A stretch of DNA of 64,000 bases. Source: Mycobacteriales bacterium (GTDB lineage: Bacteria > Actinomycetota > Actinomycetes > Mycobacteriales > JBJMIH01). A program made the position numbers and the translations under genes. Positions 4,287-53,743 of this stretch are shown here, piece by piece. Location: the NCBI GenBank assembly GCA_045806985.1, contig JBJMIH010000031.1, forward strand, positions 10,038 to 74,037, written 5' to 3'. Each line of letters begins with the position of its first letter. Within the stretch, counting starts at the first letter, position 1. A model generated the notes under the pieces. That model saw only the letters and a list, made by a program, of their open reading frames with translations. It ran no database searches and had not been told where the DNA came from.

Positions 4287-7200
4287 TCACGGATCACCAC
4301 CCCCGCCTCCACTTTCCGACGGGTTCTCGGATCCCGCCTCGACCCGCTCGTGGAGGTAGCCGGCCAGGGCGGCCGGGGTGGTGTGGTCGAAGACCGCCAC
4401 AGTGGACAGTTCGCGGCCGGTGGCGGTGGTCAGCCGGTTGTACAGCTCGAGCGCGGTGAACGAGGAGAAGCCCACCTCCGGGAAGGACAGGTCGGCGGGC
4501 ACCTCGTCGGCAGAGCCGTACCCGAGTACCTCCGCGGCCTGCCCGCGCACCAGGTCCAGCAGCACCGTCCGCTGCTCGTCCGCGGACCTGCCGGCCAGCC
4601 GGTCCAGGATCCAGCCGGCCGGGGCGGCCTCCTCCTCCGCGCCGCCGTCCGGCGCGGCGGCGGGCACGCCGGCGCCGGCCACGTCCTCCCAGCGGCGCGC
4701 CGGCCGCTCCCTGGCCACCTCGTCCCAGTCGACGTCGGCGGCGACCAGCCCGGACAGGCCGCGGCCCACGACCTGGCCGAGCGCACCGACCGCCTGCCGC
4801 GCCACCTCGCCGCCGGCGGCGAACCCGACCGCCGTCGCCGGCAGCCCGTCCGCCCGCCGCCGCCCGGCGACGGCCTCGAACCCGCCGACGGTCAGCCCGC
4901 CCGCCCCGAACATCCCCCCGGCCTCGCCGACCAGCACGAACGCAGACAGGCCGGGACGCTCGCGGGTGAGCCGGTCGAGCCGCTCGGCGCCCTCCAGGTC
5001 CCCGGCGTGGACCACGGCCGTCACCCTCGCCGGCAGCTCGTCGCCGCCGCCGTACGTCGCCACCTCCGCGCCCTGCCGGGCCAGCCAGCGGGAGATGTCG
5101 GCGGTCAGCGGGGAGTCGCCGCTGAGCAGCACGGTGCCGGTGGGACGCCAGCGCTCGGCCGCGGTGTCCAGGGTGGCGGGGCGTAGCCGGGGGACGAACA
5201 GGCCGGCCGGGCGTACCGCGGCCTCGTCCTCGCGTTCGGCGCCGGCGAGGAGGGTGGCCAGCAGGGCCTTCGTCCGGTCGTCCAGGGTGGGCGGCAGGTC
5301 GACCAGGCGGCCGCCGGCGGCGCGGACCCGGTCCCAGCGGGTGGCGGCCCGCGGGTCGGCCGGGGGGTCGCCGGGGGTGACCGCGACCGCGCCCGTCGTC
5401 ACCGTCCACACCGGAGCATCGACGCCGGGCGGGCCGGCGCCGTCGAGCGCGACCACGCCGGCCACCGGGCCGCCCGGCAGCGGGAGGCCTTCCTGGGCCG
5501 GCATGGCGGCGGCTCCGTGGGCGGACAGCGCGTCCAGCACGCCGGCGGCGAGCGGGTCGTCGCCGTCCGCGAACGCCACCAGCCAGGTGCCGGACAGCCG
5601 GCCGGGCGACGGGTCGGGTACCGGCTTCCAGTCCAGCCGGTACCAGCAGCGCCGCGCCCGCCGCCAGGCCGCCAGCGCCGGCACCACGCCGGCCAGCGGC
5701 TCCGTCCCGTCCAGGGCGAGCAGGTCGGCCAGCGCGGGCAGGTCGTCGCGCTCGACGGCCTCCCACAGCGCGGCGTCGTCCCCGCCGTCCCGTCCGGCCG
5801 CGGCCGGCGCGTCGAGCCAGTACCGCCGGTGCTGGAACGGGTACGTCGGCACCGGCGCGCGGCCGGTCCGGCCGGCGAACAGCGCCGGCCAGTCCACCGC
5901 GATCCCGCCGGCGTGGCCGCGGGCCAGCGCGGTCAGCAGGCCGCGGTTCTCCGGTCGGTCGGCGCGCAGCAGCGGTGCCAGCACCGTCCCGGACTGCACC
6001 GCGTCGGCCGGCAGGCACCGCTGGGCGAGCGCGCTCAGCACCGCGTCCGGGCCCAGCTCCAGGTAGCAGGTGACGCCCAGCTCGTGCAGGGTGCGCACGC
6101 CGTCAAGGAACCGCACCGGCCGGCGCACCTGCTGGACCCAGTAGTCGGGGGAGGCGAGCTCCTCGGCGGTGGCGAGCCCGCCGGTCACGTTCGACACCAC
6201 CGGCAGGGTGGGCCGGCGGTAGTGCAGGCTCGCGGCGACCTCCCGGTACCGGTCCAGCACCGGATCCATGTGCGGGGAGTGGAAGGCGTGGCTGACCTGG
6301 AGCCGCCGGGTCTTGCGGCCATCGGCGGCGAAGCGCTCCGCCACCGCCGTGACGGTGGCCTCGTCGCCGCTGATCACGGTCGCGTCCGGCGCGTTGACGG
6401 CGGCGACGTCGGCGCTGTCGGCGTGCTCCTCCAGCAGCGCCCGCACCTCCGGCTCGGTGGCCTGCACCGCGATCATCGCGCCTCCGCCGGTCGCCTCCTG
6501 CATGAGCGAGGCGCGGGCGGTGACCAGCGCGGCCGCGTCCGCCAGGGTCAGCACGCCGGCCAGGTGCGCGGCGGTGACCTCGCCGATCGAGTGCCCGAGC
6601 AGGTGGTCCGGCCGCACGCCCAGGCTGTCCAGCAGGCGGGCCAGCGCCACCTGAAGGGCGAACAGCGCCGGCTGGGTGTACCGGGTCTGGTCCAGCAGGC
6701 CGTCCGGGTCGCTGAACATGATGTCCTTGAGCGCCGGGTCCAGGTGGCTCCACGCCTCGTCCAGGGCTTCGGCGAACGCCGGGTACGTCCCGTACAGCTC
6801 GCGGCCCATCCCGGCGTGCTGGCTGCCCTGCCCGGTGAGCAGGAACGCGGTTGCCAGCTCGCGCGCCGGCACGGTGCCGCGCACCAGGCGGGCGGCCGGC
6901 TCGCCGCCGGCCAGCGAGTCCAGGCCGGGCAGGAAGTCCTCGACGCCGGTACCGAGCAGGACCGCGCGGTGCCGGAACCGGGTGCGGCCGGCCAGTGCCG
7001 CACCGATGCCGGCCGGGTCGGCGTCGCCGCCGGCGACGCGGTCGCGGAGGCGGGTGGCGGCGGCCCGCAGCGCCGGCTCGGTCTTCGCCGACAGCACCCA
7101 CGGGACCAGGCCGGCCGGAGTACCGGGGTCGGGCTCGTCGGCGGCGGGCGGCTGTTCGAGGACGAGGTGGGCGTTGGTGCCGCTGATGCCGAACGACGAC

Positions 7201-52700: not shown

Positions 52701-53743
52701 ACCGCCAGCTCCGGATGTCCACTCCGGACGGCGCCGAGCGCCGCCGCCTCCACCGGGTCGCCGCGCCGGGTGCCGGTACCGTGCAGCTCCACGTACTGCA
52801 CCTCGGCCGGCCCGATCCCGGACCGCCGGTACGCCTCCCGCAGCACGTCCTCCTGCGCGCCGGCGCTGGGCACGGTCAGGCCCTCGGTGGCGCCGTCGTT
52901 GTTGACAGCCCCGCCGAGGATCACGCAGCTCACCGGGTCGCCGGCGGCCACCGCGGCGGCCAGCGGCTTCAGCACGACCATGCCGCCGCCCTCGCCGCGC
53001 ACGTACCCGTCGGCGGCCGCGTCGAAGGTCCGGCAGCGGCCGTCGGGGGCGGGGGAGAGGGCGCCGGAGCGGGCCGCGGTCTCGGTGCTCTCCGGGATCA
53101 GGTTGAGGTGCACGCCGCCTGCCAGCGCCAGTTCCGACTCGCCGCGCCACAGGCTCTCGCAGGCCATGTGCACCGCGACCAGCGAGGAGGACTGGGCGGC
53201 GTCCACGGTCAGGCTGGGCCCGCGCAGGCCGAGCACGTACGACACCCGGTTGGCGATGATCGCGCGGTGCAGGCCGGTGAGCGTGTGCGGGGTGATGCCG
53301 GCCGTACCCCGCCGGGCCAGCAGCCGCGCGTAGTCGTCGGAGATGGCGCCGACGAACACGCCTGCGCGGGAGTCGCGCAGCGCCGCCGGCAGCATCCCGG
53401 CGTCCTCCAGCGCCTCCCAGCTCAGCTCCAGGGCCAGCCGCTGCTGCGGGTCCATGGCGATCGCCTCGCGCGGCGAGATCCCGAAGAACGCCGGGTCGAA
53501 CCCGTCGACGCGGTCGATGTACCCGCCGGGCCGGCCGGGTCCGCCCCGGCCCGCCGGCGGCGCGTCGGTGACCGCGTCCACCCCGTCCCGGAGCAGCGCC
53601 CAGAACGCGCCGGGGTCGGGCGCCTGCGGCAGCCGGCAGGCCAGGCCGACGACGGCGATCGGCTCGGGCGCCGTGACCGGCGTGGCCGGGGTGTCCGATG
53701 TGGCCAAGGTGTCCGGTGTGGTCGGTGTCTGCTCAGCCGGCAT
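34778..53743 (-). CDS. Type I PKS 1 (6321 aa): loading KSQ-AT(mal)-ACP; module 1 KS-AT(mmal)-DH-KR-ACP; module 2 KS-AT(mmal)-DH-KR-ACP; module 3 KS-AT(mmal)-DH-ER-KR-ACP
   Basis: ATG at 53743. The KSQ reads [14 protein letters not shown], with the Gln codon (cag) at 53192-53194 where other modules have Cys. KS Cys codons at 50192-50194, 45263-45265 and 40274-40276. The loading AT has GHSVGE/HAFH; AT1-3 have GHSQGE/YASH. DH motifs are [20 protein letters not shown] and [12 protein letters not shown]3 has [13 protein letters not shown]. The KRs carry GxGxxG, LDD and Y(T/A)A(G/A)N. ACP Ser codons at 50912-50914, 45920-45922, 40967-40969 and 35018-35020. The C-terminal tail is [17 protein letters not shown]. 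Confidence 0.97.
39512..40031. repeat. Repeat B copy 2 (module 3 KS C-terminal part)
   Basis: See copy 1. Both encode ...[56 protein letters not shown]. Confidence 0.85.
40844..45751 (-). other. PKS module 2: KS-AT(methylmalonyl)-DH-KR-ACP (boundaries approximate)
   Basis: KS starts [15 protein letters not shown] (E codon 45749-45751). KS Cys at 45263-45265; ACP Ser at 40967-40969. The KS N-terminal loop is about 11 aa shorter than in sibling KS domains. Confidence 0.85.
45797..50710 (-). other. PKS module 1: KS-AT(methylmalonyl)-DH-KR(B-type LDD)-ACP (boundaries approximate)
   Basis: Motifs are listed under PKS 1. KS Cys at 50192-50194; ACP Ser at 45920-45922. Confidence 0.85.
50790..53743 (-). 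other. PKS loading module: KSQ-AT(malonyl)-ACP (boundaries approximate)
   Basis: Gln replaces the active-site Cys (53192-53194). The AT has the HAFH motif. ACP Ser at 50912-50914. This predicts an acetate starter made by malonyl decarboxylation. Confidence 0.85.

What the first reader, a model, noticed from the sequence alone, without database searches (positions are those of the whole stretch)
4287..53743. Colinear domain reading predicts a C20, hexamethyl-branched beta-ketoacyl chain carrying Diels-Alder-ready motifs
AT motifs:
- HAFH (malonyl): loader, M6, M8 and M9.
- YASH (methylmalonyl): M1-M5 and M7.

Reductive loops:
- M1, M2, M5 and M8 have DH-KR.
- M3, M6 and M7 have DH-ER-KR.
- M4 has DH only.
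- M9 has a decayed KR.

Reading these colinearly gives CH3-CH=C(Me)-CH=C(Me)-CH2-CH(Me)-C(=O)-CH(Me)-CH=C(Me)-CH2-CH2-CH2-CH(Me)-CH=CH-C(=O)-CH2-C(=O)-S-ACP. That is 20 backbone carbons plus 6 C-methyls, or 29 carbons once the C3 glycerol unit is added.

The starter-end conjugated diene (C16-C19) together with the predicted exocyclic methylene is the classic spirotetronate [4+2] pair. The unreduced C3 keto group is what tetronate condensation needs.

Docking-like heads and tails support the order PKS1, PKS2, PKS3, PKS4. The heads are EEKL..YL+ helices and the tails are DE.(I/L/V)(F/M).(F/A)(I/L)D..L.
Basis: inference. Interest (0 to 1): 0.6.

Follow-up and report, generated by a model that had tools for sequence, protein, structure and literature searches.

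The report
Orphan exomethylene-tetronate polyketide gene cluster
This is a complete, uncharacterised gene cluster from an uncultured actinomycete that should build a 20-carbon, six-methyl polyketide, cap it with a reactive tetronate ring and fold it with up to three Diels-Alder-type enzymes; the chemistry is of a known kind, but the predicted molecule matches no characterised product that I could find.

Summary
Four collinear minus-strand genes (4287-53743) encode a KSQ loader plus nine cis-AT modules. Read colinearly, they give the C20 hexamethyl 3,13-diketo tetraene chain.

The surroundings support the tetronate logic. Upstream lie a FabH-like condensing enzyme, FkbH, an ACP, an E2-like acyltransferase and an alpha/beta hydrolase. 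Downstream lie an MFS exporter and three tandem AbyU-family beta-barrel proteins. Everything from 58771 down to 920 is one tightly packed run of same-strand genes.

The Diels-Alder pairing is not settled:
- The chain holds only one conjugated diene but three possible dienophiles.
- The spiro closure would give a 17-membered ring, with a quaternary C16 next to the spiro carbon.
- M4 keeps intact dehydratase motifs without any KR, at the position where class II spirotetronates make their second diene.

All three barrels carry signal-peptide-like N-termini and a conserved cysteine pair.

The source is a Mycobacteriales MAG. The nearest FkbH relatives are at most 67% identical, and no product is known. 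Verdict: a new member of a known kind, of moderate interest.

The parts
58840..59484 (-). TetR-family regulator; probable right-hand border of the cluster
   Evidence: Pfam TetR_N and TetR_C_29. The genes beyond it are primary-metabolism types.
57677..58771 (-). FabH/KASIII-like tetronate-forming condensing enzyme (AbyA1/ChlM/Tmn15 type)
   Evidence: Pfam ACP_syn_III. NCBIfam FabH-family models match, all below their cut-offs. Cys in QSGCSG. 57-62% identical to the gene in the same position in most related tetronate loci (49-53% in four).
55800..57677 (-). FkbH-like glyceryl-ACP synthase (625 aa); its ATG overlaps the KAS stop
   Evidence: The frame plot shows this frame is the coding one. Translation contains DLDETVWGG. 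TIGR01686 FkbH scores 300.9 bits against a cut-off of 146.65.
55576..55803 (-). Stand-alone ACP for the glyceryl unit (GWDSM)
   Evidence: Pfam PP-binding scores 25.9 bits against a cut-off of 20.8. Sequence.
54815..55579 (-). 2-oxoacid dehydrogenase E2-like acyltransferase (AbyA4/ChlD3/Agg4 type)
   Evidence: Pfam 2-oxoacid_dh. DHRVIDG motif.
53733..54818 (-). Alpha/beta hydrolase, FrsA-like (AbyA5/ChlD4/Agg5 type; acetate elimination to the exomethylene)
   Evidence: Pfam FrsA-like and Abhydrolase_1. A similar gene follows the E2-like gene in 23 of the 35 related loci.
50804..53665 (-). Loading module KSQ-AT(HAFH)-ACP, giving an acetate starter (C19-C20)
45812..50707 (-). M1 KS-AT(YASH)-DH-KR(B)-ACP, giving C18(Me)=C19
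40859..45751 (-). M2 KS-AT(YASH)-DH-KR(B)-ACP, giving C16(Me)=C17
34910..40792 (-). M3 KS-AT(YASH)-DH-ER-KR-ACP, giving C14(Me)-C15H2. The ER has Val at the stereo position. The DH motif is [10 protein letters not shown].
30863..34666 (-). M4 KS-AT(YASH)-DH-ACP, with no KR; C13 ketone and C12 methyl
   Evidence: Pfam finds no KR or SpnB_Rossmann hit. The DH motifs [18 protein letters not shown] and LLDAALQ are intact, and the DH runs through about 40 aa into the ACP.
25823..30811 (-). M5 KS-AT(YASH)-DH-KR(B)-ACP, giving C10(Me)=C11
19910..25750 (-). M6 KS-AT(HAFH)-DH-ER-KR-ACP, giving C8H2-C9H2
13668..19547 (-). M7 KS-AT(YASH)-DH-ER-KR-ACP, giving C6(Me)-C7H2. The ER has Tyr at the stereo position.
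8811..13601 (-). M8 KS-AT(HAFH)-DH-KR(B)-ACP, giving C4=C5
4353..8423 (-). M9 KS-AT(HAFH)-DE-KR0-ACP with no TE, giving C1-C2 with the C3 keto retained
   Evidence: Pfam finds PKS_DE but no KR. The KR-like remnant lacks GxGxxG, LDD and Tyr/Asn. The ACP reads GFSSF.
2706..4262 (-). DHA2/EmrB-type MFS efflux pump
   Evidence: Pfam MFS_1. TIGR00711 scores 239.5 bits against a cut-off of 230.2.
2109..2642 (-). AOC3: divergent AbyU/PloI4-family beta-barrel with a signal-like N-terminus
   Evidence: Pfam AOC_like, E = 8.8e-12. PDB match to PloI4, E = 7.8e-6. About 27% identical to AOC1. N-terminal features.
1532..2095 (-). AOC2: AbyU-family beta-barrel with a signal-like N-terminus and a Cys pair
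   Evidence: Pfam AOC_like. PDB matches: Cyc15 (8OF7), E = 2.3e-20, and AbmU, E = 1.8e-10. 52% identical to AOC1.
920..1510 (-). AOC1: AbyU-family beta-barrel with a signal-like N-terminus and a Cys pair
   Evidence: Pfam AOC_like, E = 6.8e-19. PDB matches: Cyc15, E = 8.2e-28, and AbyU, E = 2.6e-12. 100% identical to an NCBI MAG protein labelled Mycobacteriales bacterium.
688..900 (+). DUF5988 small protein; recurs in tetronate clusters
   Evidence: Pfam PF19450, E = 8.1e-21. The same family is seen in L001, L037 and L039.
3..875 (-). Carboxyl transferase (acyl-CoA carboxylase beta-like). It runs off the window. A role in methylmalonyl-CoA supply is possible.
   Evidence: Pfam Carboxyl_trans, E = 2.8e-40. 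The true start is probably near 620. The same neighbour is present in L001.

Best explanation
About 58 kb of consecutive minus-strand genes (58771 down to 920; junctions run from an 11-nt overlap to a 63-nt gap) in an uncultured actinomycete encode a complete glycerol-derived exomethylene-tetronate pathway.

1. Shown by sequence: a KSQ loader decarboxylates malonyl-ACP to acetate. Nine cis-AT modules then add methylmalonyl at M1-M5 and M7 and malonyl at M6, M8 and M9. The beta-carbon processing is DH-KR (M1, M2, M5, M8), DH-ER-KR (M3, M6, M7), none (M4, which has no KR) and none (M9, whose KR is dead).

2. Inferred by colinearity: the product is the ACP-bound 3,13-dioxo-(4E,10E,16E,18E)-6,10,12,14,16,18-hexamethyl-icosatetraenoyl chain. 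The E geometry follows from the B-type KR plus DH pairs.

3. Inferred from homology to the Aby/Chl/Agg enzymes:
- FkbH loads a glyceryl unit on the free ACP.
- The FabH-like enzyme joins it to C1/C2 of the beta-ketoacyl chain. This releases a 3-acyl-5-hydroxymethyl tetronate; the PKS has no TE.
- The E2-like acyltransferase and the hydrolase acetylate and eliminate to give the 5-exomethylene, C29H40O5.

4. Inferred and least certain: one or more of the three AbyU-family barrels catalyse a [4+2] cycloaddition that uses the only conjugated diene (C16-C19). The most probable partner is the exomethylene, giving a class I-type spirotetronate with a 17-membered carbocycle. The MFS pump exports the product or its precursor.
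For: - Domain order and active sites.
- The HxxxD/E variant of the DH motif in M3 and M7 occurs in 14 of the real DH motif matches (116 in all) among the homologues, so it is natural variation.
- Tetronate cassette. The order KAS-FkbH-ACP-E2-hydrolase-PKS(KSQ) recurs in Streptomyces canus, Umezawaea, Actinocrispum and Micromonospora loci at 51-65% identity for most genes (ACP as low as 45%).
- A dead KR in the last module of a tetronate PKS has a precedent (10.1101/2025.09.18.677008).
- A keto-retaining methylmalonyl module that still carries a DH has a precedent in neoabyssomicin module 5 (PMC5819245).
- The cyclase family is assigned from PDB sequence matches to Cyc15 (8OF7), AbyU, AbmU, PyrI4 and PloI4. 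Cyc15 makes a spirotetronate in vitro (PMC10946715).
- All three homologues of this subfamily whose contexts were informative sit inside tetronate clusters.
- According to the same preprint, all spirotetronates studied use an E,E-diene, an exomethylene tetronate and a beta-barrel enzyme.
- Genes are tightly packed; six junctions overlap by 1-11 nt.
- Internal DNA repeats are at most 96.5% identical, so there is no sign of assembly collapse.
Against: - No product is known, and no close orthologous cluster was found to test conservation. The best FkbH relative is 67% identical and the best match to the M4 junction is 51%.
- There are three cyclase genes but only one diene in the colinear chain.
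- C16 carries a methyl, so the classic regiochemistry would create two adjacent quaternary carbons.
- M4 keeps all DH motifs although it has no substrate to act on.
- The three barrels carry signal-like N-termini. This is unexpected for enzymes acting on a cytoplasmic intermediate.
- The sequence comes from a metagenome-assembled genome.
- The PKS2/PKS3 order rests on gene order alone.
- The window ends at the left, so tailoring genes may lie beyond it.
Confidence: 0.6

Rival explanations
1. Cryptic class II pathway. The M4 beta-keto group is reduced by a neighbouring or trans-acting KR and dehydrated by the intact M4 DH, giving C12=C13. The chain then carries 4E, 10E, 12E, 16E and 18E double bonds. 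That provides the canonical decalin pair (C4=C5 with C10-C13) and the spiro pair. The product would be a decalin spirotetronate with an unusually small 9-membered central ring. The three barrels would share the two or more cycloadditions.
For: - M4 DH keeps His, YGP, LPFSW and Asp.
- The C1-C11 pattern is: keto at C3, 4E, two fully reduced units, 10E. This matches the class II chain 4E...10E,12E (10.1101/2025.09.18.677008).
- More than one cyclase gene is present.
Against: - No KR or KR remnant is present in M4.
- No free-standing SDR and no FAD-type decalin cyclase lies in the window.
- The abm module 5 shows that a DH can persist in a keto-retaining module.
- Cross-module KR action is rare in cis-AT PKSs (established knowledge).
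- A 9-membered ring spanning a decalin and a spirocycle would be strained (inference).
Confidence: 0.12
2. Decalin or carbocycle formation at the starter end, not a spirocycle. The C16-C19 diene reacts with C10=C11 across the 4-atom tether C12-C15 (a 1,7,9-decatriene geometry), or with the C4=C5 enone. The exomethylene tetronate is left intact as a free Michael acceptor, as in agglomerin or tetrodecamycin.
For: - The geometry follows directly from the colinear chain.
- Enzymes of this family are catalytically plastic and act on non-cognate substrates (PMC10946715).
- C16 methylation disfavours the spiro closure (inference).
Against: - C10=C11 is unactivated and trisubstituted.
- In all studied cases this barrel family forms the spiro linkage or a related tetronate-centred pericyclic step.
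- The closest solved homologue, Cyc15, makes a spirotetronate.
Confidence: 0.13
3. The colinear reading fails. Possible causes are module skipping or iteration, a swapped PKS2/PKS3 order, or a misassembly of the MAG at M4. The real chain would then differ in length or pattern.
For: - The source is a MAG.
- Modules share converted segments: the M6 and M8 KS-AT share 1885 bp at 93%, and the M5 and M7 KR share 406 bp at 90%.
- The docking heads and tails are near-identical in type.
Against: - The reading frames are uninterrupted with GC3 of 0.93-0.96 throughout.
- No repeat exceeds 96.5% identity.
- The M4 DH-to-ACP linker is a clean junction, and the same architecture recurs in other PKSs.
- The gene order gives a chain whose C1-C11 pattern matches known tetronates.
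Confidence: 0.08
4. The three AOC-like proteins are not the pathway's cyclases. They would be exported binding or self-protection proteins, for example sequestering the reactive tetronate outside the cell. Cyclisation would then be spontaneous or absent.
For: - Signal-like N-termini and a conserved Cys pair occur in all three and in most full-length family members: 92 and 83 of 107.
- The genes follow the efflux pump in the same gene run.
Against: - The closest solved relative, Cyc15, is an active [4+2] cyclase.
- No other cyclase candidate lies in the window.
- Relatives sit singly inside tetronate clusters, where a cyclase is expected.
Confidence: 0.07

Closest known systems
Abyssomicin / neoabyssomicin clusters (aby, abs, abm)
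   Same: - KSQ acetate loader.
- The first modules (DH-KR) build the starter-end diene.
- A methylmalonyl module retains its ketone yet still carries a DH (abm module 5).
- The last module leaves the C3 keto group, and there is no TE.
- The five-gene cassette A1-A5 is present.
- The cyclase belongs to the AbyU-family beta-barrels.
(PMC5819245.)
   Different: - Nine rather than six extension modules.
- Six rather than two methyl branches.
- The KR of the keto module is deleted rather than inactivated.
- Three cyclase paralogues of a different subfamily, only about 31-37% identical to an AbyU orthologue over about 80-90 residues and carrying signal-like N-termini.
- No P450, monooxygenase or type II TE in the window.
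- An 11-membered ring there, against a predicted 17-membered ring here.
Class II spirotetronate PKSs (chlorothricin, kijanimicin, lobophorin, MM 46115/pellemicin)
   Same: - A dead KR in the last module.
- A C1-C11 pattern of 3-keto, 4E, a reduced spacer and 10E.
- A starter-end diene.
- Six methylmalonyl units, as in lobophorin.
(PMC10143065.)
   Different: - LM + 9 modules, against LM + 11.
- M4 lacks the KR needed for 12E, so the decalin diene is absent.
- The spacer unit that keeps a C9 hydroxyl in MM 46115 (9S) is fully reduced here.
- No FAD-type decalin cyclase, sugar genes or glycosyltransferases in the window.
Cyc15 (PDB 8OF7), orphan [4+2] cyclase of Streptomyces sp. NL15-2K
   Same: It is the best solved-structure match for AOC1 (E = 8.2e-28) and AOC2 (E = 2.3e-20). 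It is an eight-stranded beta-barrel and forms a spirotetronate from an abyssomicin-type substrate.
   Different: - Its own cluster is fragmented and its product is unknown.
- The deposited chain (153 aa) lacks the roughly 50-residue N-terminal extension seen here.
Agglomerin Agg4/Agg5-type acetylation-elimination pair (also ChlD3/ChlD4, AbyA4/AbyA5)
   Same: An E2-like acyltransferase with DHRxxDG is followed by a FrsA-like alpha/beta hydrolase, in that order and overlapping by 4 nt.
   Different: Activity was not tested. The hydrolase has no GxSxG motif.

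Membership tests
Glycerol-derived tetronate pathway (Aby/Chl/Tmn/Agg type) | FkbH-like glyceryl-ACP synthase | tested here: met
   TIGR01686 scores 300.9 bits against a cut-off of 146.65, and HAD-IIIC also matches. 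The gene had to be re-framed.
Glycerol-derived tetronate pathway (Aby/Chl/Tmn/Agg type) | Dedicated free-standing ACP next to FkbH | tested here: met
   PP-binding scores 25.9 bits against a cut-off of 20.8; the serine is in GWDSM.
Glycerol-derived tetronate pathway (Aby/Chl/Tmn/Agg type) | FabH-like condensing enzyme with an active-site Cys | tested here: met
   ACP_syn_III by Pfam. FabH models match, all below their curated cut-offs, so it is a divergent FabH relative. The Cys lies in QSGCSG.
Glycerol-derived tetronate pathway (Aby/Chl/Tmn/Agg type) | Terminal PKS module that delivers a beta-ketoacyl-ACP and has no thioesterase | tested here: met
   M9 is KS-AT-DE-KR0-ACP with no TE.
Exomethylene-forming branch (Agg4/Agg5 type) | E2-like acyltransferase plus alpha/beta hydrolase pair | tested here: met
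   2-oxoacid_dh with DHRVIDG, and a FrsA-like hydrolase. Catalysis cannot be tested here.
Spirotetronate (class I) | Conjugated E,E-diene at the starter end of the chain | tested here: met
   Predicted, not observed. LM, M1 and M2 have methylmalonyl ATs, B-type KRs and intact DHs.
Spirotetronate (class I) | AbyU/VstJ/PyrI4-family beta-barrel cyclase in the cluster | tested here: met
   Three AOC_like genes match Cyc15, AbyU, AbmU, PyrI4 and PloI4.
Spirotetronate (class I) | Spiro-linked cyclohexene-tetronate in the product | not testable with these tools
   No product is known. The pairing of diene and dienophile is inferred only.
Spirotetronate (class II, decalin) | A second diene (10E,12E) set against a 4E dienophile | tested here: not met
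   M4 has no KR, so C13 stays a ketone under the colinear reading.
Spirotetronate (class II, decalin) | FAD-dependent-type decalin cyclase (ChlE3/PyrE3/LobP3 type) | tested here: not met
   No FAD-binding ORF lies in the window. Genes beyond the left edge are unseen.
Abyssomicin cluster | Loader plus six extension modules, and an AbyU orthologue | tested here: not met
   There are nine extension modules. AOC1-3 are 31-37% identical to an AbyU orthologue over about 80-90 residues and belong to a different subfamily.
Colinear cis-AT modular type I PKS | One AT per module, intact KS C-H-H triads, ACP serines and inter-subunit docking domains | tested here: met
   Actual colinearity of the product cannot be tested here.

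The most novel reading that the evidence does not exclude
The final ring-forming chemistry may take place outside the cytoplasm. All three AbyU-family barrels, and most of their subfamily, carry a translated N-terminal signal-like segment: Arg-rich, then a hydrophobic stretch, then AxA. They also carry a conserved pair of cysteines, one near each end of the mature barrel. The genes lie directly after the efflux pump. The reactive linear exomethylene tetronate would be exported and then folded by up to three secreted pericyclases, giving a scaffold with no characterised counterpart. That scaffold could be a 17-membered spirotetronate, or a polycycle that also uses the C4=C5 and C10=C11 alkenes.
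Probability: 0.2. Interest if true: 0.75.

Novelty: new member of a known kind. Interest (0 to 1): 0.45.

Why it matters
Spirotetronates and exomethylene tetronates include potent antibacterial, antitumour and antiviral compounds. Their beta-barrel [4+2] cyclases are sought as biocatalysts.

This cluster predicts a chain length and methylation pattern (C20, six methyls, C29H40O5) that I could not match to any characterised tetronate. It also offers three co-located cyclase paralogues to test against one substrate.

If the signal-like N-termini are real export signals, a whole subfamily of these cyclases would work outside the cell. That would change how they are expressed and assayed.

The practical value is a concrete target for expression and mass spectrometry. 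It does not add a new biological principle.

Tried and rejected
- Exact-sequence look-ups of the KAS, PKS3, the aldehyde dehydrogenase and P0001 found no stored contig. I could therefore not read the source contig beyond the window.
- A genome-contig scan with an AOC alignment found nothing.
- The FkbH scan found only relatives at 39-67% identity. None had an obviously orthologous PKS.
- The M4 junction was searched in the protein collection (best full-junction (98-99% coverage) match 49%) and in metagenome contigs (best 51% over the DH part). Neither search found the 90%-identical relative's PKS, so conservation of the KR-less M4 could not be tested.
- The 581-aa ORF at 55576-57321 from the mechanical ORF list was rejected as the wrong frame. 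It has no family hit, and the frame plot points to another frame.
- Self-BLAST of the whole PKS region returned too few hits, so I replaced it with a chunked search.
- Literature searches for C29H40O5 tetronates, and for signal peptides on spirotetronate Diels-Alderases, returned nothing.
- I considered reading the PKS2/PKS3 order from docking-residue complementarity. I dropped this because the three heads and three tails are too similar to discriminate.
- Structure prediction of the barrels was not run. Sequence matches to solved cyclases already fix the fold, and the tool reports no inter-residue distances for testing the disulfide.

Full report
**What is at the coordinates**

The window is about 75% G+C. 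It carries four abutting minus-strand ORFs: PKS1 at 34778-53743, PKS2 at 19664-34774, PKS3 at 8529-19667 and PKS4 at 4287-8522. Third-codon-position G+C is 0.93-0.96, so these are real genes in the frames given.

I cut the proteins into module-sized pieces and scanned them against Pfam. The domain order was:
- Loader: KS-AT-ACP.
- M1, M2, M5, M8: KS-AT-DH-KR-ACP.
- M3, M6, M7: KS-AT-DH-ER-KR-ACP.
- M4: KS-AT-DH-ACP.
- M9: KS-AT-dimerisation element, then about 360 residues with no Pfam hit, then ACP. There is no thioesterase.

**Active-site checks**

- Ketosynthases. The loader KS has Gln in place of the active Cys (VDAAQSSS), so it is a decarboxylating KSQ. All nine extender KS domains keep Cys-His-His.
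- Acyltransferases. They fall into two groups. LM, M6, M8 and M9 read GHS[V/I]G...HAFH. M1-M5 and M7 read GHSQG...YASH; M3 is YASHC, which is why a simple pattern search missed it. The two groups are only 29-44% identical to each other.
- Dehydratases. All eight DH domains keep the catalytic His and the LLDxALH/Q Asp. M3 and M7 have Asp where the HxxxGxxxxP motif usually has Gly. Among the real DH motif matches (116 in all) in homologues retrieved here, 14 carry Asp or Glu at that position, so this is natural variation.
- Ketoreductases. All seven scored KR domains have GxGxxG, the LDD motif of B-type reductases and the Lys/Ser/Tyr/Asn set. Paired with a DH, this predicts E double bonds.
- The M9 region. 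It aligns to the KRs at both ends but has lost GxGxxG, LDD and the Tyr/Asn. "Decayed KR" is an accurate description.
- Enoylreductases. M6 and M7 have Tyr at the methyl-stereochemistry position; M3 has Val.
- Carrier proteins. Every ACP keeps its serine. M9 reads GFSSF instead of GFDSL.
- Docking. Heads on PKS2, PKS3 and PKS4 are recognised by Pfam PF08990. The tails are [26 protein letters not shown] and [13 protein letters not shown] on PKS1-3. PKS4 has no tail and PKS1 has no head.

**The chain**

The colinear reading gives these units:

| Module | Carbons | Result |
|---|---|---|
| Loader (acetate) | C19-C20 | starter |
| M1 | C17-C18 | C18(Me)=C19 |
| M2 | C15-C16 | C16(Me)=C17 |
| M3 | C13-C14 | C14(Me)-C15H2 |
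| M4 | C11-C12 | C12(Me), C13 ketone |
| M5 | C9-C10 | C10(Me)=C11 |
| M6 | C7-C8 | C8H2-C9H2 |
| M7 | C5-C6 | C6(Me)-C7H2 |
| M8 | C3-C4 | C4=C5 |
| M9 | C1-C2 | C3 ketone |

The free acid would be C26H40O4. Adding glycerate and removing three waters gives an exomethylene tetronate of C29H40O5 (monoisotopic 468.288). Any cycloadduct is an isomer. This is my arithmetic from the verified domains.

**Surroundings**

Upstream of PKS1, on the same strand and mostly overlapping by 1-11 nt, lie five genes:
- A FabH-like enzyme at 57677-58771 with its Cys intact.
- An FkbH protein at 55800-57677.
- A 75-residue ACP at 55576-55803.
- An E2-like acyltransferase with DHRVIDG at 54815-55579.
- A FrsA-like alpha/beta hydrolase at 53733-54818.

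FkbH and the ACP were hidden in the mechanical ORF list by a spurious 581-aa ORF. A codon-position G+C plot showed the true frame. The re-framed protein scores 300.9 bits on TIGR01686 against a cut-off of 146.65, and the ACP passes Pfam PP-binding.

A TetR gene at 58840-59484 closes the cluster on this side. Beyond it lie citryl-CoA lyase, a CoA transferase, IclR and an aldehyde dehydrogenase.

Downstream of PKS4 come a DHA2-type efflux pump and then three tandem genes of the Pfam AOC_like family. After these come a DUF5988 gene on the other strand and a carboxyl transferase that runs off the window.

**The three barrels**

Sequence searches against solved structures place them in the spirotetronate cyclase family:
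- AOC1 and AOC2 match Cyc15 (8OF7) best, at E = 8e-28 and 2e-20. They then match AbyU, AbmU, PyrI4 and PloI4.
- AOC3 is divergent and matches PloI4 best, at E = 8e-6.

Cyc15 is an orphan enzyme from Streptomyces sp. NL15-2K. It converts an abyssomicin-type substrate to a spirotetronate (PMC10946715). AOC1 and AOC2 are 52% identical to each other. AOC3 is about 27% identical to either.

All three begin with an Arg-rich stretch, a 15-20-residue hydrophobic run and an Ala-rich end. A Cys follows, and a second Cys lies in a conserved I(T/N)LC near the C-terminus. These extensions are translated: each has an ATG with a purine-rich ribosome-binding sequence, and G+C at the third position is 0.92-0.96 in the first 50 codons.

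An exhaustive profile-free search found 128 family representatives at E < 1e-3. Of the 107 full-length sequences examined (104 of these representatives plus the window's own three barrels), 92 have a signal-like N-terminus by a simple hydropathy and charge test, and 83 also have the Cys pair.

Four relatives were looked up; the three on usable contigs lie inside tetronate clusters, next to FabH-like, E2-like and FrsA-like genes and a PKS; two of them also have an FkbH-sized ORF and an ACP beside these. The hosts are Dactylosporangium salmoneum, Micromonospora lupini and a soil metagenome. Each of these clusters has one copy, not three. Canonical AbyU orthologues in Herbidospora and Micromonospora gifhornensis loci lack both the extension and the cysteines.

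I could not run a signal-peptide predictor, so export remains an inference.

**Origin and relatives**

AOC1 is 100% identical to an NCBI protein from a MAG labelled Mycobacteriales bacterium, on a 190-kb contig. A JGI metagenome contig (L001) is 90% identical in DNA over 1.7 kb. It keeps the order AOC2 end, AOC1, DUF5988, carboxyl transferase, so at least the AOC2-AOC1 tandem is not an assembly accident.

A scan of one genome per species with FkbH gave 35 loci at 39-67% identity. Several share the gene order FabH-FkbH-ACP-E2-hydrolase-PKS(KSQ). None is close enough to be the same cluster. Searches with the M4 DH-ACP junction found only distant PKSs, at no more than 51%.

Inside the PKS, the longest repeats are:
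- M6 and M8 KS-AT: 1885 bp at 93%.
- M5 and M7 KR: 406 bp at 90%.
- Two KS segments of PKS3: 288 bp at 96.5%.

These are signs of gene conversion and are not identical enough to suggest a collapsed assembly.

**How it most likely works**

Steps shown by sequence are the domain content and the cassette. Steps inferred from characterised homologues follow the general scheme in PMC6521127:
1. Glyceryl-ACP is formed.
2. C-C and C-O bonds form with the beta-ketoacyl-ACP, giving a 3-acyl-5-hydroxymethyl tetronate.
3. Acetylation and elimination give the exomethylene.
4. A barrel-catalysed [4+2] cycloaddition follows.

The dead KR in M9 has a direct parallel. In the MM 46115/pellemicin PKS, the last module's KR carries deletions and lacks the Tyr, and it is identified as the module that delivers the beta-keto thioester for tetronate release (10.1101/2025.09.18.677008).

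M4 also has a parallel. The ketone-retaining methylmalonyl module of the neoabyssomicin PKS is KS-AT-DH-KR(inactive)-ACP, and its authors leave open whether that DH is active (PMC5819245). Here the KR has gone altogether and the DH joins the ACP through about 40 residues.

If the spiro carbon bonds to the chain-bearing end of the diene, as in known cases, the carbocycle is C2-C16 plus two tetronate carbons, which is 17 members. The same count gives 11 for abyssomicin and 13 for class II compounds. C16 carries a methyl, so it would become quaternary next to the quaternary spiro carbon. In the MM 46115 class II chain (methyl branches at C4, C6 and C18, ethyl at C12), and by my recollection in abyssomicin, the corresponding carbon is unsubstituted.

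The chain has only one conjugated diene, while the cluster has three cyclase genes. C10=C11 lies four atoms from the diene, which is the standard decalin-forming geometry.

The C1-C11 pattern (3-keto, 4E, two saturated units, 10E) is the class II decalin pattern up to the point where 12E should follow. M4 is exactly the module that would make 12E. It has an intact DH but no KR.

These points do not refute the spirotetronate reading, and I still rank it first. They do mean that the Diels-Alder pairing and the fate of C13 are open. I have listed these alternatives as rivals, along with failure of colinearity and a non-cyclase role for the exported barrels.

**Comparison and novelty**

The machinery is the known glycerol-derived tetronate/spirotetronate kind, and every cassette feature I could test is met.
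- It is not an abyssomicin cluster. It has nine extension modules and a different cyclase subfamily.
- It does not meet two defining class II features. There is no second diene under colinearity, and no FAD-type decalin cyclase in the window.
- No characterised tetronate that I know of or could find has LM + 9 modules with this methylation (one search found no C29H40O5 tetronate).

I file it as a new member of a known kind.

The most novel reading that the evidence allows is that this signal-bearing cyclase subfamily acts after export. I give that about one chance in five.

Noticed in passing
window 920-2642 (AOC1-3); family representatives P0123-P0249: The three cyclase-like barrels and most of their subfamily carry a signal-peptide-like N-terminus and a conserved Cys pair, one just after the hydrophobic segment and one in a C-terminal xLC motif. 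Counts are 92 and 83 of 107 full-length sequences. Canonical AbyU orthologues have neither feature. This suggests exported, disulfide-bonded proteins.
   Followed up: partly
window 688-900 (+); L001 777-989; L037 5251-5487; L039 9493-9726: A 70-residue DUF5988 protein recurs beside AOC-like genes and tetronate cassettes in four independent loci. Its function is unknown.
   Followed up: partly
window 11287-13171 vs 23421-25305; 14293-14698 vs 26487-26898; 13287-13574 vs 19233-19520: Gene-conversion-like repeats occur between modules: M8 and M6 KS-AT (1885 bp, 93%), M7 and M5 KR (406 bp, 90%), and the M8 and M7 KS N-termini (288 bp, 96.5%). The malonyl modules M6 and M8 have 92% identical AT domains.
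   Followed up: partly
window 55576-57321 (-): The mechanical ORF list shows a 581-aa ORF here that is not a gene. The real genes are FkbH (55800-57677, another frame) and a small ACP (55576-55803). Only the last 70 residues of the false ORF are real coding sequence.
   Followed up: yes
window 4353-4553 (M9 ACP): The terminal ACP reads GFSSF where the other nine read G(F/M)DS(L/V). The serine is kept but the preceding Asp is lost. This may relate to hand-over to the FabH-like enzyme.
   Followed up: no
L019 5780-8866 and L029 5783-8872: In two Streptomyces loci the AbyU-like sequence lies at the end of a long open frame full of YD/Rhs repeats, just upstream of the FabH-like gene. This probably explains why AbyU and Cyc15 are named 'YD repeat-containing' or 'Rhs family' protein in PDB entries.
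   Followed up: no
L001 1-1676 vs window 1-1657: A JGI metagenome contig (sample 3300061856) is 90% identical in DNA. It keeps the order AOC2 end, AOC1, DUF5988, carboxyl transferase, so a close relative of this cluster exists in a second sample.
   Followed up: partly
window 59486-63951: Beyond the TetR gene lie a citryl-CoA lyase (true start near 60290), a family III CoA transferase (true start near 61490), an IclR regulator and an aldehyde dehydrogenase. This looks like an organic-acid catabolic unit unrelated to the cluster. The first-start ORFs overlap only because they are over-extended.
   Followed up: partly
window 3-875 (-): A carboxyl transferase (acyl-CoA carboxylase beta-like) lies at the left edge and is conserved next to the cyclases in L001. 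It may supply the six methylmalonyl-CoA units. The window ends inside it, so the left border of the cluster is not seen.
   Followed up: no
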